DNA of 64,000 bases. Source: Desulfobacterales bacterium. GTDB taxonomy: Bacteria; Desulfobacterota; Desulfobacteria; Desulfobacterales; JAEINQ01. Positions 16,081 to 19,294 of the stretch are shown here, in pieces (the stretch's first letter is position 1; each line of letters starts with the position of its first letter). The stretch covers positions 1-64,000 of the forward strand of contig JAEINQ010000002.1 in the NCBI GenBank assembly GCA_016342285.1, read 5' to 3'. Under the pieces are notes generated by a model. It had not been told where the DNA came from. It saw only the letters and a list, made by a program, of their open reading frames with translations, and ran no database searches. A program made the translations under genes and the position numbers.

Positions 16081-17157
16081 TTACCAGGCCGCTGCCGTCG
16101 GGCCTTCGCGTCGGGCCCTGTCCAGTTTTTCATGGGCTCCGAGGATGAGTTTCTCCGTGGTCTCCCAGGAGATGCATTCGTCGGTGATGGAAACGCCGTA
16201 TTTCAGCGCCGACACATCACCGGTATACTTCTGGCTGCCTTCAAAGAGGTTGCTCTCCAGCATCAACCCCACCAGAGCATCGTTACCTGCTATAACCTGA
16301 TCGACGACATTTTTCCAGACAATGGCTTGGCCCTGGTATTTTTTCATGGAATTGGCATGGGAGCAGTCGATGACAATCGCCTCGGGGAGCCCCTTTTCGA
16401 TAAGGTTCAACCGGGTCTGTTCAATACTGATGGGATCGTAGTTGGGCCGCTTTCCCCCGCGCAGCACCACATGGCCCAGTTCGTTTCCCGTGGTTTTGAC
16501 CACGCAGGTCCGGCCCTGCTGGTCGATTCCCAAAAAGCTTTGGGGGGCGCGGGCCGCCACCATGGCGTTGATGGCCGACGCCAGGTTGCCGTCGGTACCG
16601 TTCTTGAAGCCCACGGGCATGGAGAGGCCGCTGGCCATTTCCCGATGGGTCTGGCTTTCGGTGGTGCGGGCGCCAATGGCCGACCAGCTCACCAGATCGT
16701 CCACGTATTGGGGGGTGATGGGCTCGAGCATCTCAGTGGCCGTGGGAACCCCCATGTTAATAATGGCCAGCAAGATGCGACGGGCCTTGTGAAGTCCGGC
16801 CACCATGTCGCAGGTGCCGTCCAGGTTCGGGTCGTTGATCAGCCCTTTCCAGCCGGTGGTGGTCCGCGGTTTTTCGAAGTAGACCCGCATGACGATATAG
16901 AGGGTGTCCGAGACCCGGTCGCGAAGGTCGCGGATCTTTTCGGCGTATTCCAGGGCAGCCTTTTCGTCGTGGATGGAACACGGTCCGACCACCACCAGCT
17001 GCCGGCGGTCTTCCCGGTGAAGAATTTTACGAATGGCCTCGCGGCTGTCGGCGACGGTTTCGTTGGCCGCCGCGGTGATGGGCAGTTCCTGTTTCAGGCT
17101 TATGGGTGTCATGAGTGCCACATACTCCTTGACCCTCAGGTCGGATGTGCGTTTCAT
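16081..17157 (-). CDS. aroG: 3-deoxy-7-phosphoheptulonate (DAHP) synthase, class I-alpha
   Basis: LLVVVGPCSIHD, IVMRVYFEKPRTTTGWKGLINDP, GARTTESQTHRE, FKNGTDG match AroG/F/H-type DAHP synthases almost block for block. Confidence 0.9.
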   Translation of the reverse strand: MKRTSDLRVKEYVALMTPISLKQELPITAAANETVADSREAIRKILHREDRRQLVVVGPCSIHDEKAALEYAEKIRDLRDRVSDTLYIVMRVYFEKPRTTTGWKGLINDPNLDGTCDMVAGLHKARRILLAIINMGVPTATEMLEPITPQYVDDLVSWSAIGARTTESQTHREMASGLSMPVGFKNGTDGNLASAINAMVAARAPQSFLGIDQQGRTCVVKTTGNELGHVVLRGGKRPNYDPISIEQTRLNLIEKGLPEAIVIDCSHANSMKKYQGQAIVWKNVVDQVIAGNDALVGLMLESNLFEGSQKYTGDVSALKYGVSITDECISWETTEKLILGAHEKLDRARREGPTAAAW

Positions 17158-17267
17158 TATTCAATCCTTTCGGTAAAAGAAAAATCAGTGATGGGTCGGA
17201 TTTTCCGCCGGATCCTAAAAAAGTGGTTGTCGTACCTGCCGTAGTACATGCTTTCCTCCCGGGATCT

Positions 17268-17308
17268 GCTGAAAACAGAAAAGCCGTGGTCGGTGTTTCC
17301 GCCACGGC
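17268..17308 (-). terminator. Intrinsic terminator B in the aroG leader (stem GCCGTGG/CCACGGC, then a U-rich tract on the minus transcript)
   Basis: AAGCCGTGGTCGGTGTTTCCGCCACGGCTT, followed on the minus strand by UUCUGUUUUC. Confidence 0.5.
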
Positions 17309-17315
17309 TTTTGCA

Positions 17316-17345
17316 TAAAAAAACCGCGGGCTGGTCTGCCCGCGG
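17316..17345 (-). terminator. Intrinsic terminator A in the aroG leader (GC stem CCGCGGGC/GCCCGCGG followed by U7 on the minus transcript)
   Basis: + strand ATAAAAAAACCGCGGGCTGGTCTGCCCGCGG; the minus-strand transcript gives the hairpin then UUUUUUUAU. Confidence 0.65.
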
Positions 17346-17371
17346 CTTGTTCGCTGTTATGTCGTTATGGC

Positions 17372-17452
17372 TCAGCGCATGCCCGGCAGACCGGTACCAA
17401 AATAAAAGTACCAAAAATAAAAATAGAATCCGCCGGAAAATTTGCTTACCAT
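17372..17452 (-). CDS. Candidate attenuation leader peptide (26 aa) MVSKFSGGFYFYFWYFYFGTGLPGMR with ten consecutive Phe/Tyr/Trp codons
   Basis: ATG at 17452-17450 preceded by AAGGAAAC. Codons read TTC TAT TTT TAT TTT TGG TAC TTT TAT TTT. Stop TGA (17374-17372) lies about 26 nt upstream of terminator A. An internal GGUAC-UUUUAUUUUG-GUACC hairpin overlaps the aromatic codon run. Confidence 0.6.
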   Translation of the reverse strand: MVSKFSGGFYFYFWYFYFGTGLPGMR

Positions 17453-17487
17453 GAAATCGTTTCCTTGGTCGTTGATTTTCCGGTCAC

Positions 17488-17515
17488 CCTATACGGGCTG
17501 TCCAAAGCATGTCAA
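17488..17515 (-). promoter_or_regulatory. Sigma-70-like promoter for the aroG leader (minus strand: TTGACA-16 nt-TATAGG)
   Basis: Hexamers read on the minus strand, with the leader ATG about 35 nt downstream. Confidence 0.35.
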
Positions 17516-17680
17516 GGACTTTTTTGACGGATGTTTGTAACCAAGCCCCTGACACAGGGGTTGACAGGCCGGGCCAAAACCGCTACGAAACGGCAAAATC
17601 AATCCGGCAACAGACAGGTTATGTCAGGCAAAGGCCATCCCGACCTAGGGGGATGGCCTTTTTTATTTTCAGGAGGATCC

Positions 17681-19294
17681 ATGGCGATCAAGATCAGTGT
17701 ACTGGCAATATATTTTCTCGTGGTTCTGGCCATCGGCCTGGTGGCACGCACGCGATGGAAATCTTCTCCTGAAACCTATTTCCTGGCGGACCGAAAGCTG
17801 GGGACCCTGGTCCTGCTGGGGACCATGGTTGCAACCAACTTCAGCGCCTTTACGGTGTTTGGCACTTCAGGCGCCGGTTATCGCGACGGTTATGCTTTCT
17901 TTCCCATCATGGGGTTCGGCACTGGTTTCATGGCTCTGACCTTCTGGATTCTGGGCCGCAAAATATGGCAAATCGGGCTGGATAGAAACATCGTGACCCC
18001 GCCGGAGCTGGTTCGTGCCCTGTATGGGAGCCCAGCGCTCTCCTTTCTTTTTGCCCTGGTGATGATTGTCTTCACCATTCCGTACCTGGCCCTGCAGCCC
18101 ATGGCTGCCGGCTATGCCCTGGACGCGCTCATCGGACTTCCCTACGTGTGGGGGTGCGTCCTGGTGACGGCCATCATTGTCCTTTACACCCTGCGTGGCG
18201 GTATGCGGGCCGTGGCCTGGACCGATCTGTTCCAGGGGGCGTTGATGTTTGTGTTGCTGGGCGTATCCCTCTTTCTGGTGGTTCGCCACTACGGAGGTTT
18301 TGCCGAAGCCAACGCACGGGTGCTGGCCGCCAGTCCCGAACTCTTCTCCCGGCCGGGCGGGACGGGAAAATACACCGTGGGCGTCTGGTTCAGCTTCATC
18401 ATGCTGTGGTTCTTCTGCGATCCCATGTTCCCTCAGCTGTTCCAACGCTTTTTTTCCGCCAAGAGCCCCAAGACCATCTCCCGCATCATGCTCTTTTATC
18501 CGGTGGTCTGCACCGTGGTTTTTTTCATACCCATCGCCATCGGGGTCCTGGGCCGCCTCGCCTTTCCGGATCTGGTGGGCAAAGAGGCCGACCGGATTCT
18601 TCCCATGGTACTGACCCTGATCTCCGGCGACGTCATGGCGGCCCTGGTCATTGCGGCCGGCCTGGCAGCCCTCATGTCGACCATGGACTCCCAGCTACTG
18701 ACCTTAAGCTCGATCTTCACCCGCGACGTGATGCCCATGGTCAGCAAAAAGGAATCCAGCGGAAGCCTCACGGGCCGAATCTTTGTCATCTGCCTGAGTA
18801 TCGCCGGCCTGGCTCTGGCCTATAAACCGCCGGCCACCATTCTGCAGATCGCCACCCAGACCTTTACCGGCCTGGCCGTGCTTTTTCCAACCGTGGTTTT
18901 CGGTCTTTACCTTAAGCGGGTTTTTGCCCAGGCGGCCATCCTCTCCATCGTCACTGGTGAGGCAATGGTGCTGCTCTTCTACCTGAAGGTGATCTCTGCG
19001 GGCGCTTTTCTTCCGGTGGTCTGGGTCATGGCCGTGGCTTTTGGCGTCTATCTGTCCGTCCATGCCTTCCTGCTCCATCGCCGGGGGGATCTATCCGTCA
19101 CCGTGCCCGGATGGGTAGCGAATCCCTACTTCCTGGCCCTGGGGGCGATTTTCCTGCTGGCCATGGATTTCTGGGCCTGGGGGCGGGTAACGCCGCTCTT
19201 TTTCGGTATGCCCTGGTGGATCGCCTACTTCGTGGTGCTCTCTGCCCTCCAGACCGTGGTGATGTTCTATCTGGTCCGGGCCGAAAGCCGTTAG
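17681..19294 (+). CDS. Sodium:solute symporter (SSS) family transporter
   Basis: 13-14 TM helices and SSS family blocks; AGGAGG RBS directly before ATG 17681 (track ORF starts earlier at 17531). Confidence 0.85.
   Translation: MAIKISVLAIYFLVVLAIGLVARTRWKSSPETYFLADRKLGTLVLLGTMVATNFSAFTVFGTSGAGYRDGYAFFPIMGFGTGFMALTFWILGRKIWQIGLDRNIVTPPELVRALYGSPALSFLFALVMIVFTIPYLALQPMAAGYALDALIGLPYVWGCVLVTAIIVLYTLRGGMRAVAWTDLFQGALMFVLLGVSLFLVVRHYGGFAEANARVLAASPELFSRPGGTGKYTVGVWFSFIMLWFFCDPMFPQLFQRFFSAKSPKTISRIMLFYPVVCTVVFFIPIAIGVLGRLAFPDLVGKEADRILPMVLTLISGDVMAALVIAAGLAALMSTMDSQLLTLSSIFTRDVMPMVSKKESSGSLTGRIFVICLSIAGLALAYKPPATILQIATQTFTGLAVLFPTVVFGLYLKRVFAQAAILSIVTGEAMVLLFYLKVISAGAFLPVVWVMAVAFGVYLSVHAFLLHRRGDLSVTVPGWVANPYFLALGAIFLLAMDFWAWGRVTPLFFGMPWWIAYFVVLSALQTVVMFYLVRAESR

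What the first reader, a model, noticed from the sequence alone, without database searches (positions are those of the whole stretch)
17268..17515. Textbook ribosome-mediated attenuator upstream of aroG: 26-aa leader peptide with ten consecutive Phe/Tyr/Trp codons followed by two tandem terminators
The 360-nt region between aroG (DAHP synthase, minus strand) and the divergent transporter reads on the minus strand as follows. First a TTGACA-16-TATAGG promoter-like pair (17515-17488). Then an AAGGA RBS and an ATG-start ORF MVSKFSGGFYFYFWYFYFGTGLPGMR (17452-17372). Then, about 26 nt after its stop codon, a strong GC hairpin plus U7 (17345-17316). Then a second hairpin plus U-rich tract (17308-17268), and about 110 nt further on, the aroG start. 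A run of F-Y-F-Y-F-W-Y-F-Y-F in a tiny ORF placed before tandem terminators of an aromatic-pathway operon is the classical signature of leader-peptide attenuation responding to charged tRNA-Phe, tRNA-Tyr and tRNA-Trp at once. The supplied ORF track missed this peptide because the longest ORF there is a TTG-start read in another frame. The aromatic codon stretch itself lies in a GGUAC-N10-GUACC hairpin, which is a plausible pause or 1:2 structure. Leader-peptide attenuation of aro genes is well known in Gammaproteobacteria; I am not aware of it being described for this kind of delta-proteobacterial aroG-B-A-K-C-tyrA operon.
Basis: partly seen in the sequence, partly recalled or inferred. Interest (0 to 1): 0.75.

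Follow-up and report, generated by a model that had tools for sequence, protein, structure and literature searches.

The report
Aromatic leader-peptide attenuator before aroG
A 26-codon mini-gene with ten consecutive Phe/Tyr/Trp codons, followed by two terminators, sits in front of the aromatic amino acid operon of an uncultured Desulfobacterales bacterium and is conserved in at least 18 related lineages, so it is almost certainly a classical ribosome-stalling switch, a known mechanism in a group where I found no earlier description of it.

Summary
The leader ORF MVSKFSGGFYFYFWYFYFGTGLPGMR (17452-17372, minus strand) has a Shine-Dalgarno (SD) ribosome-binding site and sits downstream of a TTGACA promoter. 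Two strong intrinsic terminators follow it (T1 17348-17317, T2 17312-17279), about 110 nt before aroG.

The run of 10 aromatic codons is unique in the 64 kb window. The next longest run is 4, and 200 simulations never exceeded 6.

Homologous leaders of 24-26 codons lie upstream of aroG in 17 other Desulfobacterales-type lineages (aroG 59-88% identical), plus one truncated contig. They share the SD, 7-11 aromatic residues and T1. Twelve of the 18 also have T2.

All four classical attenuator segments are present and conserved:
- Segment 1 (17436-17428) pairs with segment 2 (17392-17382).
- Segment 2 alternatively pairs with the T1 5' arm and loop, forming the antiterminator.
- The stop codon lies so that a terminating ribosome covers segment 2.

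I also propose a relay. The freed T1 3' arm pairs with the T2 5' arm in all 12 tandem cases, so one stall could open both terminators.

The Trp codon is not conserved, so the signal is Phe and Tyr.

The mechanism is known. Precedents at DAHP synthase genes are Corynebacterium aroR-aroF and an Acholeplasma uORF motif. This is a new member of a known kind.

The parts
17510..17515 (-). -35 hexamer TTGACA, preceded by an A-rich tract
   Evidence: One search gives the coordinates. TTGACA or TTGACT lies 56-68 nt (once 84 nt) upstream of the leader start codon in 16 of 18 homologous leaders, usually after an A-tract.
17486..17493 (-). -10 region: TATAGG at a 16-nt spacing, or TAGGGT at 18 nt
   Evidence: TATAGGGT or TGTAGGGT is conserved in the closest relatives. 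The consensus match is weak and the scanner did not list it.
17461..17466 (-). Shine-Dalgarno (SD) site AAGGAA of the leader ORF
   Evidence: An AAGGA or AGGGA motif lies 7-10 nt before the start codon in all 18 leaders.
17372..17452 (-). Leader ORF, 26 codons plus UGA: MVSKFSGGFYFYFWYFYFGTGLPGMR
   Evidence: Homologues have 24-26 codons and 7-11 aromatic residues.
17428..17436 (-). Segment 1, CCGGCGGAU. It pairs with segment 2 to form the anti-antiterminator.
   Evidence: The helix is 82-85% paired across 18 sequences, with changes on both sides at 2-3 pairs. The GGCAGAC motif is kept even where it lies in a different reading frame (L171, L173, L005).
17399..17428 (-). Regulatory run of 10 aromatic codons: UUC UAU UUU UAU UUU UGG UAC UUU UAU UUU
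17393..17413 (-). Inner hairpin UGGUAC(U)-N8-(G)GUACC(G) inside the 1:2 loop
   Evidence: A hairpin based on GG...CC is present at this place in all 18 leaders, with different sequences: GGUAC/GUACC, GGUAU/AUACC, CGGC/GCCG and AGGUAU/AUACCU.
17373..17392 (-). Segment 2: core GGUCUGCC (17392-17385), extended through GGGC and UGCGCUG into the stop codon
   Evidence: It pairs either with segment 1 or with segment 3. The stop codon (17374-17372) lies 11 nt after the core, so a terminating ribosome covers the segment.
17333..17356 (-). Segment 3: spacer CAGCG (17356-17352), the T1 5' arm AAGCCGCGGGC (17348-17338) and the loop; GGCAGACC lies at 17340-17333
   Evidence: the 2:3 duplex is -30.2 kcal/mol and 0 of 500 shuffles match it; the core helix is 90.6% paired in 18 sequences.
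17317..17331 (-). Segment 4: T1 3' arm GCCCGCGG plus the U7 tract. T1 as a whole spans 17348-17317.
   Evidence: The 3:4 helix is 92.9% paired, with changes on both sides at 4 pairs.
17279..17312 (-). Terminator 2 (segments 5 and 6): AAAAGCCGUGGCGG-AAACA-CCGACCACGGCUUUU, followed by the U-rich tail CUGUUUU (17278-17272)
   Evidence: -21.7 kcal/mol. A second terminator 8-12 nt after T1 is present in 12 of 18 homologues. Segment 5 (17312-17299) can pair with segment 4 at -14.7 kcal/mol.
17157..17260 (-). Conserved block after T2 that can be read as a second upstream ORF (uORF2): SD GGGAGG, ATG at 17249, MYYGRYDNHFFRIRRKIRPITDFSFTERIE, and a TAA that overlaps the aroG ATG. Its role is unknown.
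   Evidence: The block is conserved only in the three closest relatives (L161-L163).
16081..17157 (-). aroG, a type I-alpha DAHP synthase. It is the first gene of the operon aroG-aroB-aroA-aroK/L-aroC-aminotransferase-tyrA.
   Evidence: TIGR00034 at 475 bits, plus aroB, aroA, shikimate kinase, aroC, an aminotransferase and prephenate dehydrogenase.

Best explanation
This is a ribosome-mediated (leader-peptide) transcription attenuator. It sets expression of the aroG-aroB-aroA-aroK-aroC-aminotransferase-tyrA operon according to the supply of charged tRNA-Phe and tRNA-Tyr.

Proposed sequence of events:
1. Transcription starts about 30 nt upstream of the leader ATG, from the TTGACA promoter. This is inferred from conservation.
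2. A ribosome translates the 26-codon leader.
3. If Phe-tRNA and Tyr-tRNA are plentiful, the ribosome reaches the UGA at 17374-17372 and covers segment 2 (17392-17373). The T1 hairpin (3:4) then forms and RNA polymerase stops at the U7 tract. T2 (5:6) catches any read-through.
4. If they are scarce, the ribosome stalls in the run of 10 aromatic codons (17428-17399). There it sits on segment 1, or inside the 1:2 loop, which leaves segment 2 free. Segment 2 pairs with segment 3 as soon as segment 3 is transcribed, so T1 cannot form.
5. The unpaired T1 3' arm and its U tract then pair with the A-tract and 5' arm of T2 (4:5). T2 cannot form either, and the polymerase runs into aroG.
6. If the leader is not translated at all, 1:2, 3:4 and 5:6 all form and transcription terminates.

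Shown here:
- the sequence elements;
- their conservation in 18 lineages;
- the alternative pairings and their computed energies;
- the geometry relative to the stop codon.

Inferred:
- the transcription start;
- coupling of transcription and translation in this organism;
- the actual response to amino acid supply;
- the 4:5 relay, which I put at about 0.5 on its own.
For: Anatomy in the window. The aromatic run is unique in the window.

Conservation:
- All 9 further lineages fetched through close AroG relatives (70-88% identical) carry a leader. So do 8 loci from the genome and metagenome scans (59-72% identical). Each leader has 24-26 codons, an SD, an ATG, GTG or TTG start, 7-11 aromatic residues and a terminator 16-32 nt after the stop.
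- A covariance model built from them hits only these places in 1.04 Mb of held sequence, once in the window, always just upstream of aroG. The exceptions are one truncated contig (L082) and a weaker paralogous copy in front of a second DAHP synthase operon.

Evidence that the constraint acts on RNA pairing:
- Residues in the run interchange among F, Y and W.
- The flanking conserved motifs are conserved as nucleotides, including third codon positions.
- Segment 1 is kept even where it lies in a different reading frame.

Alternative structures:
- The 1:2 duplex is -15 to -30 kcal/mol and the 2:3 duplex -17 to -32 kcal/mol in all 18 leaders. Both use the same stretch of segment 2. At most 10 of 500 shuffles match the 2:3 energy.
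- The terminator-state structure is 86-88% paired, with 6-10 pairs changed on both sides. No shuffle out of 500 reaches its covariation score, and versions with slid partners fall to 28-49% paired.
- The 2:3 core is 90.6% paired.

Snapshots with a ribosome stalled at codon 12:
- 2:3 is the minimum-free-energy (MFE) fold while T1 is being made.
- 2:3 plus 4:5 is the MFE fold once the T2 5' arm is out.
- With the ribosome on the stop codon, T1 and T2 form instead.

Relay: 4:5 is stable (-14.7 to -22.5 kcal/mol) in all 12 tandem-terminator loci.

Functional logic: the operon makes chorismate and then tyrosine.

Precedent: aroR-aroF in C. glutamicum responds to Phe limitation.
Against: - There are no expression data, and the organism is an uncultured MAG.
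- With the complete leader at equilibrium, the terminators are the MFE fold in the window even when a stalled ribosome is masked. Antitermination must therefore be kinetic, as in classical attenuators. This is not demonstrated here.
- The 2:3 core is mostly conserved rather than covarying. Only one pair changes on both sides, and 29 of 500 shuffles reach its covariation score.
- The 4:5 pairing could be a by-product of T2 having arisen as a copy of T1. Shuffling is a lenient control for it.
- The -10 element is a poor consensus match.
- One Desulfobacterales locus with a 61% identical aroG (L003) lacks the leader.
Confidence: 0.85

Rival explanations
1. The element is a leader-peptide attenuator, but only T1 is regulated. 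T2 is an unregulated backup or insulating terminator that sets a constant ceiling on read-through. The 4:5 complementarity is just a consequence of T2 being a diverged copy of T1.
For: The 5' arms of T1 and T2 are similar in sequence (AAGCCGCGGGC versus AAAAGCCGUGGCGG), so 4:5 pairing follows automatically. Six of 18 leaders work with T1 alone. At equilibrium T2 wins over 4:5.
Against: An unregulated terminator of -16 to -25 kcal/mol with a U tract would stop most transcripts that had just been allowed through T1, which would defeat the switch. The 4:5 pairing is kept in all 12 tandem loci although the arms have diverged. In L002 it is better than T1 itself: -22.5 against -16.2 kcal/mol. In the window, 2:3 plus 4:5 is the MFE fold at the moment the T2 5' arm has emerged.
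Confidence: 0.35
2. Termination is controlled by a protein or a small RNA that binds the U/A-rich triplet repeats (UAU and UUU every 3 nt) or segment 2, in the manner of TRAP. The small ORF is incidental.
For: The run is a periodic U-rich sequence. The other two frames also read as low-complexity Ile/Phe or Leu/Phe strings. A divergent short transcript with partial complementarity to segment 2 is encoded 100 nt away.
Against: The SD, the start codon, the ORF length of 24-26 codons and the position of the stop codon relative to segment 2 are conserved in all 18 lineages. The frame set by the start codon is always the aromatic one, including with UGG, UAC and UUC codons. No candidate regulator gene is linked to the element across the loci.
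Confidence: 0.05
3. The ORF encodes a functional small protein, or the region is simply a 5' UTR with constitutive terminators that insulate aroG from the divergent promoter. In either case it has no sensing role.
For: A small conserved ORF could in principle have a function as a peptide. The C-terminal T-G-L-P-G-V-R is well conserved.
Against: The C-terminal conservation is at the nucleotide level and coincides with the paired segment 2. Residues inside the run interchange freely among F, Y and W. Two strong terminators directly between a promoter and an essential biosynthetic operon only make sense if they are conditional. The same design recurs in front of a second DAHP synthase operon.
Confidence: 0.03

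Closest known systems
Enterobacterial pheL-pheA and trpL-trp leader-peptide attenuators (Rfam Phe_leader, Trp_leader)
   Same: Both have a short translated leader with a run of codons for the pathway's end product. Both have four segments forming 1:2 and 3:4 or, alternatively, 2:3, and an intrinsic terminator before the first biosynthetic gene. In both, the stop codon is placed so that a ribosome that finishes the leader blocks the antiterminator.
   Different: There is no sequence or covariance-model similarity: a permissive Rfam scan of the region and a gathering-threshold scan of the whole window found no leader family. This element controls the common-pathway (DAHP synthase) operon rather than pheA or trp. 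It mixes Phe and Tyr codons (10 in a row). The regulatory run lies in the loop of 1:2 rather than within segment 1. Two terminators stand in tandem.
Corynebacterium glutamicum aroR-aroF attenuator (Neshat et al. 2014, as described in PMC11802643 and PMC4046766)
   Same: It is a leader peptide with aromatic codons upstream of a DAHP synthase operon, and it has been shown experimentally to raise transcription under Phe limitation. It is the closest functional precedent.
   Different: It belongs to a different phylum. AroR carries only a Phe-Tyr-Phe tripeptide, against 7-11 aromatic residues here. Tyr supply reportedly does not affect it.
uORFC-13-1 motif upstream of aroF in Acholeplasma (Brewer et al. 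2021, PMC8632094)
   Same: It is a predicted uORF with a promoter, an RBS and U-rich (Phe) codons, immediately before an intrinsic terminator of a DAHP synthase gene.
   Different: It is found only in Acholeplasma and environmental sequences. It codes for at least one Phe, not a long mixed aromatic run. It has not been tested, and no tandem terminators are described.
his operon leader of Salmonella and E. coli (six segments A-F; from my own knowledge, not checked here)
   Same: It uses a chain of alternative hairpins: A:B, C:D and E:F in the terminating state, B:C and D:E in the read-through state. It also has a long run of regulatory codons. This is the same relay logic I propose for 1:2/3:4/5:6 against 2:3/4:5.
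   Different: In his, only the last hairpin is a terminator. Here both 3:4 and 5:6 are full intrinsic terminators with U tracts.

Membership tests
Ribosome-mediated (leader-peptide) transcription attenuators | A short ORF with a ribosome-binding site and start codon lies in the 5' leader of a biosynthetic operon. | tested here: met
   The SD AAGGAA is at 17466-17461, the ATG at 17452, and the ORF has 26 codons. The same arrangement occurs in 17 homologues.
Ribosome-mediated (leader-peptide) transcription attenuators | The leader ORF is enriched in codons for the amino acids the operon produces. | tested here: met
   There are 10 consecutive F/Y/W codons. This is unique in the window and beyond 200 simulations. 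The homologues have 7-11 aromatic residues. The operon makes chorismate and Tyr.
Ribosome-mediated (leader-peptide) transcription attenuators | An intrinsic terminator lies between the leader ORF and the first structural gene. | tested here: met
   T1 is 17348-17317 and T2 is 17312-17279. T1 is present in all 18 leaders, with compensatory changes at 4 pairs.
Ribosome-mediated (leader-peptide) transcription attenuators | An antiterminator (2:3) excludes the terminator, and an upstream helix (1:2) excludes the antiterminator. | tested here: met
   Both duplexes use the same segment 2 in all 18 leaders. Pair counts are, and folding snapshots. Covariation for 2:3 is weak: the helix is conserved rather than compensated.
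Ribosome-mediated (leader-peptide) transcription attenuators | The geometry fits the model: a ribosome at the stop codon covers segment 2, and a ribosome stalled at the regulatory codons leaves it free. | tested here: met
   The segment 2 core ends 11 nt before the UGA, and its extension runs into the stop codon. The first seven aromatic codons lie 20 nt or more upstream of segment 2. This assumes an E. coli-like ribosome footprint of about 12 nt on either side.
Ribosome-mediated (leader-peptide) transcription attenuators | Read-through responds to the supply of charged tRNA and depends on translation of the leader. | not testable with these tools
   This needs reporters, Term-seq or in vitro coupled assays.
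Rfam leader families (Phe_leader, Trp_leader, other amino acid leaders) | A match to the family covariance model at or near the gathering score. | tested here: not met
   No leader family appeared in the permissive scan of 16900-18000, and nothing at all at gathering threshold in the whole window. The element works like these families but is not a member of any curated one.
C. glutamicum aroR-type leader | Sequence homology of the leader and attenuator to aroR. | not tested
By description it has a single F-Y-F motif, so independent origin is likely.

The most novel reading that the evidence does not exclude
The element may be a six-segment 'double-lock' attenuator. One ribosome stall would be relayed through two complete intrinsic terminators: 2:3 frees the T1 3' arm, which then disarms T2 through 4:5. 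This would give a very tight off state with a single sensor. The design appears to be a family trait of Desulfobacterales. It is also reused in front of a second, ACT-domain-linked DAHP synthase operon, and in the window's closest relatives it is followed by a further aromatic-rich upstream ORF (uORF2) that abuts the aroG start codon.
Probability: 0.4. Interest if true: 0.5.

Novelty: new member of a known kind. Interest (0 to 1): 0.4.

Why it matters
- It gives a concrete, testable regulatory mechanism for aromatic amino acid biosynthesis in Desulfobacterales. This is an abundant group of marine sulfate reducers in which almost nothing is known about amino acid regulation, and which lacks the TyrR/TrpR-type control known from Gammaproteobacteria.
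- It adds a well-populated family (at least 18 lineages, with a usable covariance model) to the short list of attenuators acting directly on DAHP synthase. That would improve genome annotation: the leader is missed by gene callers, and in one relative it had been merged into a 417-aa "AroG".
- The tandem-terminator relay, if real, would be a neat design principle for tight synthetic switches.
- The finding does not change the understanding of attenuation itself.

Tried and rejected
- Rfam scans gave only chance matches to the terminator hairpins. The best was AaHKsRNA41 at 27 bits against a gathering score of 97.
- Equilibrium folding of the complete leader with a masked, stalled ribosome mostly still gave T1. 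I therefore do not use MFE of the full RNA as evidence, and rely on truncated snapshots and duplex energies instead.
- The MAFFT alignments (A1, A2) misalign the inner hairpin in several rows, so column counts for it are low. Alignment-free folding shows it in all 18.
- The extra 2:3 helix between GCGCUG and the spacer CAGCG is real in the window and some relatives, but it is not column-conserved. I therefore left it out of the pair counts.
- I considered that the L003 upstream region (HHFFYF...) might be a degenerate leader and rejected it. It has no start codon, no terminator and no model hit.
- I considered that the plus-strand ATG at 17621 starts a leader peptide or a longer symporter and rejected it. 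Indels in the hairpin loop break the frame among relatives.
- Literature searches for this element in Desulfobacterales or delta-proteobacteria found nothing. This is absence within the held library only.
The taxonomic spread is therefore a lower bound.
Full report
**1. The observation**

- TTGACA lies at 17515-17510, and TATAGG 16 nt further on at 17493-17488.
- AAGGAA lies at 17466-17461.
- An ATG ORF of 26 codons, MVSKFSGGFYFYFWYFYFGTGLPGMR, runs from 17452 to 17372.
- A GC-rich hairpin spans 17348-17321 (11 pairs, 8 of them G-C) and runs into a U7 tract ending at 17317.
- A second hairpin spans 17312-17279 (-21.7 kcal/mol) and is followed by CUGUUUU.
- The aroG ATG is at 17157.

The gene identities are confirmed. 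They are a type I-alpha DAHP synthase, then aroB, aroA, a shikimate kinase, aroC, an aminotransferase and a prephenate dehydrogenase. A divergent sodium/solute symporter lies on the other strand, with aroE and aroD beyond it.

The run of ten consecutive aromatic codons is the only run longer than four in all six frames of the 64 kb. In 200 first-order Markov simulations the longest run was six. The leader RNA folds far better than shuffles, with z = -7.6. The window's AroG is identical to a protein of a "MAG: Desulfobacterales bacterium".

**2. Conservation**

I scanned one genome per species and the metagenome collection with AroG, then searched the 800 nt upstream of each hit for aromatic-rich reading frames. 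Frames with 7-8 aromatic residues in 8 appeared almost only in the loci whose AroG is closest to the window's: L001, L002, L006, L081 and L083. The single exception is L103, an unrelated-looking leader described in section 6. L084, L085 and L005 carry somewhat weaker runs. About 140 loci from Gammaproteobacteria, Cyanobacteria, Verrucomicrobia, Desulfuromonadales and other groups had nothing comparable.

I then fetched contigs for nine closer AroG relatives (70-88% identity). Every one carries the element. Examples:
- MAQKFTGRFYFYFWYFYFGTGLPGVR
- MAQDFNGRFYFYFRYFYFGTGLPGVR
- VVHTFSGSFVFYYRYYYDNTGLPGVR
- MQSLADKYYFYFGFYFYFAGLPAVP

Across 18 distinct leaders the following features recur:
- The ORF has 24-26 codons.
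- An AAGGA or AGGGA motif precedes an ATG, GTG or TTG start.
- There are 7-11 aromatic residues.
- A terminator follows 16-32 nt after the stop codon.
- In 16 of 18, a TTGACA or TTGACT preceded by an A-rich tract lies about 56-68 nt upstream of the start codon.

A covariance model built from these 18 leaders hits each of them at 100-149 bits. It hits the window only once. In 1.04 Mb of held sequence it finds only three other things: the 3' half of the element at the cut end of L082, a weaker paralogous copy discussed in section 6, and chance-level matches.

**3. What is conserved, and at which level**

Inside the run, F, Y and W interchange freely. One lineage (L005) has seven Tyr and no Phe.

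The single Trp codon of the window is present in only 8 of 18 leaders. Elsewhere that position is CGG, AGG or GGN. These codons keep the GG that base-pairs in the inner hairpin.

By contrast, the flanking motifs are conserved as nucleotides, third codon positions included:
- CAGGCAGA before the run;
- ACCGGUCUGCCUGGGGUGCGCUGA at the end of the ORF.

In L171, L173 and L005 the first motif lies in a different reading frame, where GCA GAC reads Ala-Asp instead of GGC AGA reading Gly-Arg. The peptide's conserved ends therefore reflect RNA pairing. The middle reflects a need for aromatic codons as such.

**4. Alternative structures**

Segment 1 (17436-17428, CCGGCGGAU) pairs with segment 2 (17391-17383, GUCUGCCGG). 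Segment 2 can instead pair with GGCAGACC (17340-17333), which is the end of the 5' arm and the loop of T1, and further with the spacer.

The computed duplex energies are -19.9 kcal/mol for 1:2 and -30.2 kcal/mol for 2:3 in the window. In all 18 leaders both pairings exist and use the same stretch of segment 2. At most 10 of 500 shuffles match the 2:3 energy.

Column-wise pair counts:

| Helix | Cells paired | Pairs changed on both sides |
|---|---|---|
| T1 (3:4) | 92.9% | 4 |
| 1:2 | 82-85% | 2-3 |
| 2:3 core | 90.6% | 1 |

For the terminator-state structure, sliding the partners drops pairing to 28-49%, and no shuffle reaches its covariation score. The 2:3 core is essentially conserved rather than compensated.

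The UGA lies 11 nt after the segment 2 core, so a terminating ribosome covers it. The first seven aromatic codons are far enough upstream to leave it free.

Folding snapshots support this. With a ribosome held at codon 12, 2:3 is the minimum-free-energy (MFE) fold while T1 is being transcribed. With a ribosome on the stop codon, T1 forms at once. For the complete RNA at equilibrium, T1 wins in the window. Read-through must therefore be a kinetic outcome, as in the classical systems.

**5. The tandem terminators**

Twelve of the 18 leaders have a second strong terminator 8-12 nt after T1. An unregulated T2 would undo what T1 allows.

In all twelve, the T1 3' arm plus its U tract is complementary to the A-tract plus 5' arm of T2. 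The resulting hairpins are -14.7 to -22.5 kcal/mol. In L002 this is stronger than T1 itself.

In the window, 2:3 plus 4:5 is the MFE fold at the moment the T2 5' arm has emerged. I therefore propose a relay: 1:2, 3:4 and 5:6 in the off state, against 2:3 and 4:5 in the on state. This is analogous to the chain of hairpins in the his leader, a comparison I make from my own knowledge.

This step is inference. The complementarity would also follow if T2 were simply a diverged copy of T1. I give the relay about even odds.

**6. Further occurrences**

In L164-L166 and L168, a second divergently oriented leader is followed by its own pair of terminators. It precedes an ACT-domain gene and a second DAHP synthase gene. 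The two leader sequences are:
- MESTHSIQYYFNFGRFFFSFRGVHPVVER
- MNTQYATKGYFNFGRFFFSFRSVHPVS

Two metagenomic lineages with more distant AroG carry unrelated-looking aromatic leaders with terminators:
- L103: MSMVAAYYYFYYFYAFDPGGET
- L087: only a partial leader is present at the cut end of the contig.

The device is thus used repeatedly for DAHP synthase genes.

**7. Comparison with what is known**

The mechanism is the textbook one. No Rfam family matches, so the element is not a member of the curated Phe, Trp or other leader families.

In Gammaproteobacteria, attenuation is documented for trp and pheA, while DAHP synthase genes are under TyrR and TrpR. Leader-peptide control of a DAHP synthase gene is known from two cases:
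- Corynebacterium glutamicum aroR-aroF, with a Phe-Tyr-Phe motif, is responsive to Phe limitation.
- The Acholeplasma uORFC-13-1 motif has been predicted but not tested.

I found no description for Desulfobacterales or other former delta-proteobacteria. That includes the comparative study of regulatory RNAs in delta-proteobacteria (PMC545781).

**8. Verdict**

- The element is a new, well-populated member of a known kind of regulatory element.
- Interest is moderate. The tandem-terminator relay is the only feature that goes beyond the textbook, and it remains to be tested.

Noticed in passing
window 17561-17672, + strand: A TTGACA (17561-17566) is followed by a conserved block, CAGGTTATGTCAGGCAAAGGCCATCCCGACCTAGGGGGATGGCCTTTTTTATTTT. 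The block contains a GC hairpin (17630-17661) plus a U run, which lies 8 nt before the SD and ATG (17681) of the divergent sodium/solute symporter. The same block precedes the symporter in L161, L162 and L163, there 60-150 nt from the start codon. Loop indels break any reading frame, so it is an RNA element: a short terminated transcript, an attenuator or an sRNA. Its sensor is unknown and it has no Rfam match.
   Followed up: partly
window 17157-17260, - strand: A conserved block lies downstream of T2: GGGAGG..ATG TAC TAC GGC AKG TWC GAC AAC CAY TTY TTT AG. It is shared with the three closest relatives. In the window it reads as a 30-aa upstream ORF (uORF2), MYYGRYDNHFFRIRRKIRPITDFSFTERIE, with a strong SD. 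Its TAA overlaps the aroG ATG (TAATG). L162 has an ATGA overlap, and L161 lacks the first ATG. The block is again rich in aromatic codons. It may be a second, translational layer of control, or an RNA element.
   Followed up: partly
L164:1466-1625 (-), also L165 and L166; L168:1542-1697 (-): A second, paralogous aromatic leader (MESTHSIQYYFNFGRFFFSFRGVHPVVER or MNTQYATKGYFNFGRFFFSFRSVHPVS) has its own two tandem terminators. It is divergent from the aroG leader and sits upstream of an ACT-domain gene plus a second DAHP synthase gene.
   Followed up: partly
L103:1200-1350; L087:1-140: Unrelated-looking aromatic leaders with terminators lie upstream of more distant type I-alpha DAHP synthase genes in metagenomic contigs of unknown taxonomy. 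L103 reads MSMVAAYYYFYYFYAFDPGGET. L087 carries only a partial leader (..NAFYFYFW..) because the contig is cut there. This suggests independent or very diverged origins.
   Followed up: no
L005:2842-2981: This leader has seven Tyr and no Phe codons (MAHIADKAYRYYYCYYYTCGLSAAP). In this lineage the switch would report Tyr alone.
   Followed up: no
L163:3001-4254: The gene caller's 417-aa 'AroG' (P0004) is extended upstream through the leader region. This shows how the region is mis-annotated in public data.
   Followed up: no
L171-L174: In these lineages aroD and aroE lie directly upstream of the leader, in the same orientation. In the window they lie beyond the divergent symporter. The leader and its promoter therefore sit inside a larger aromatic gene cluster whose arrangement varies.
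   Followed up: no
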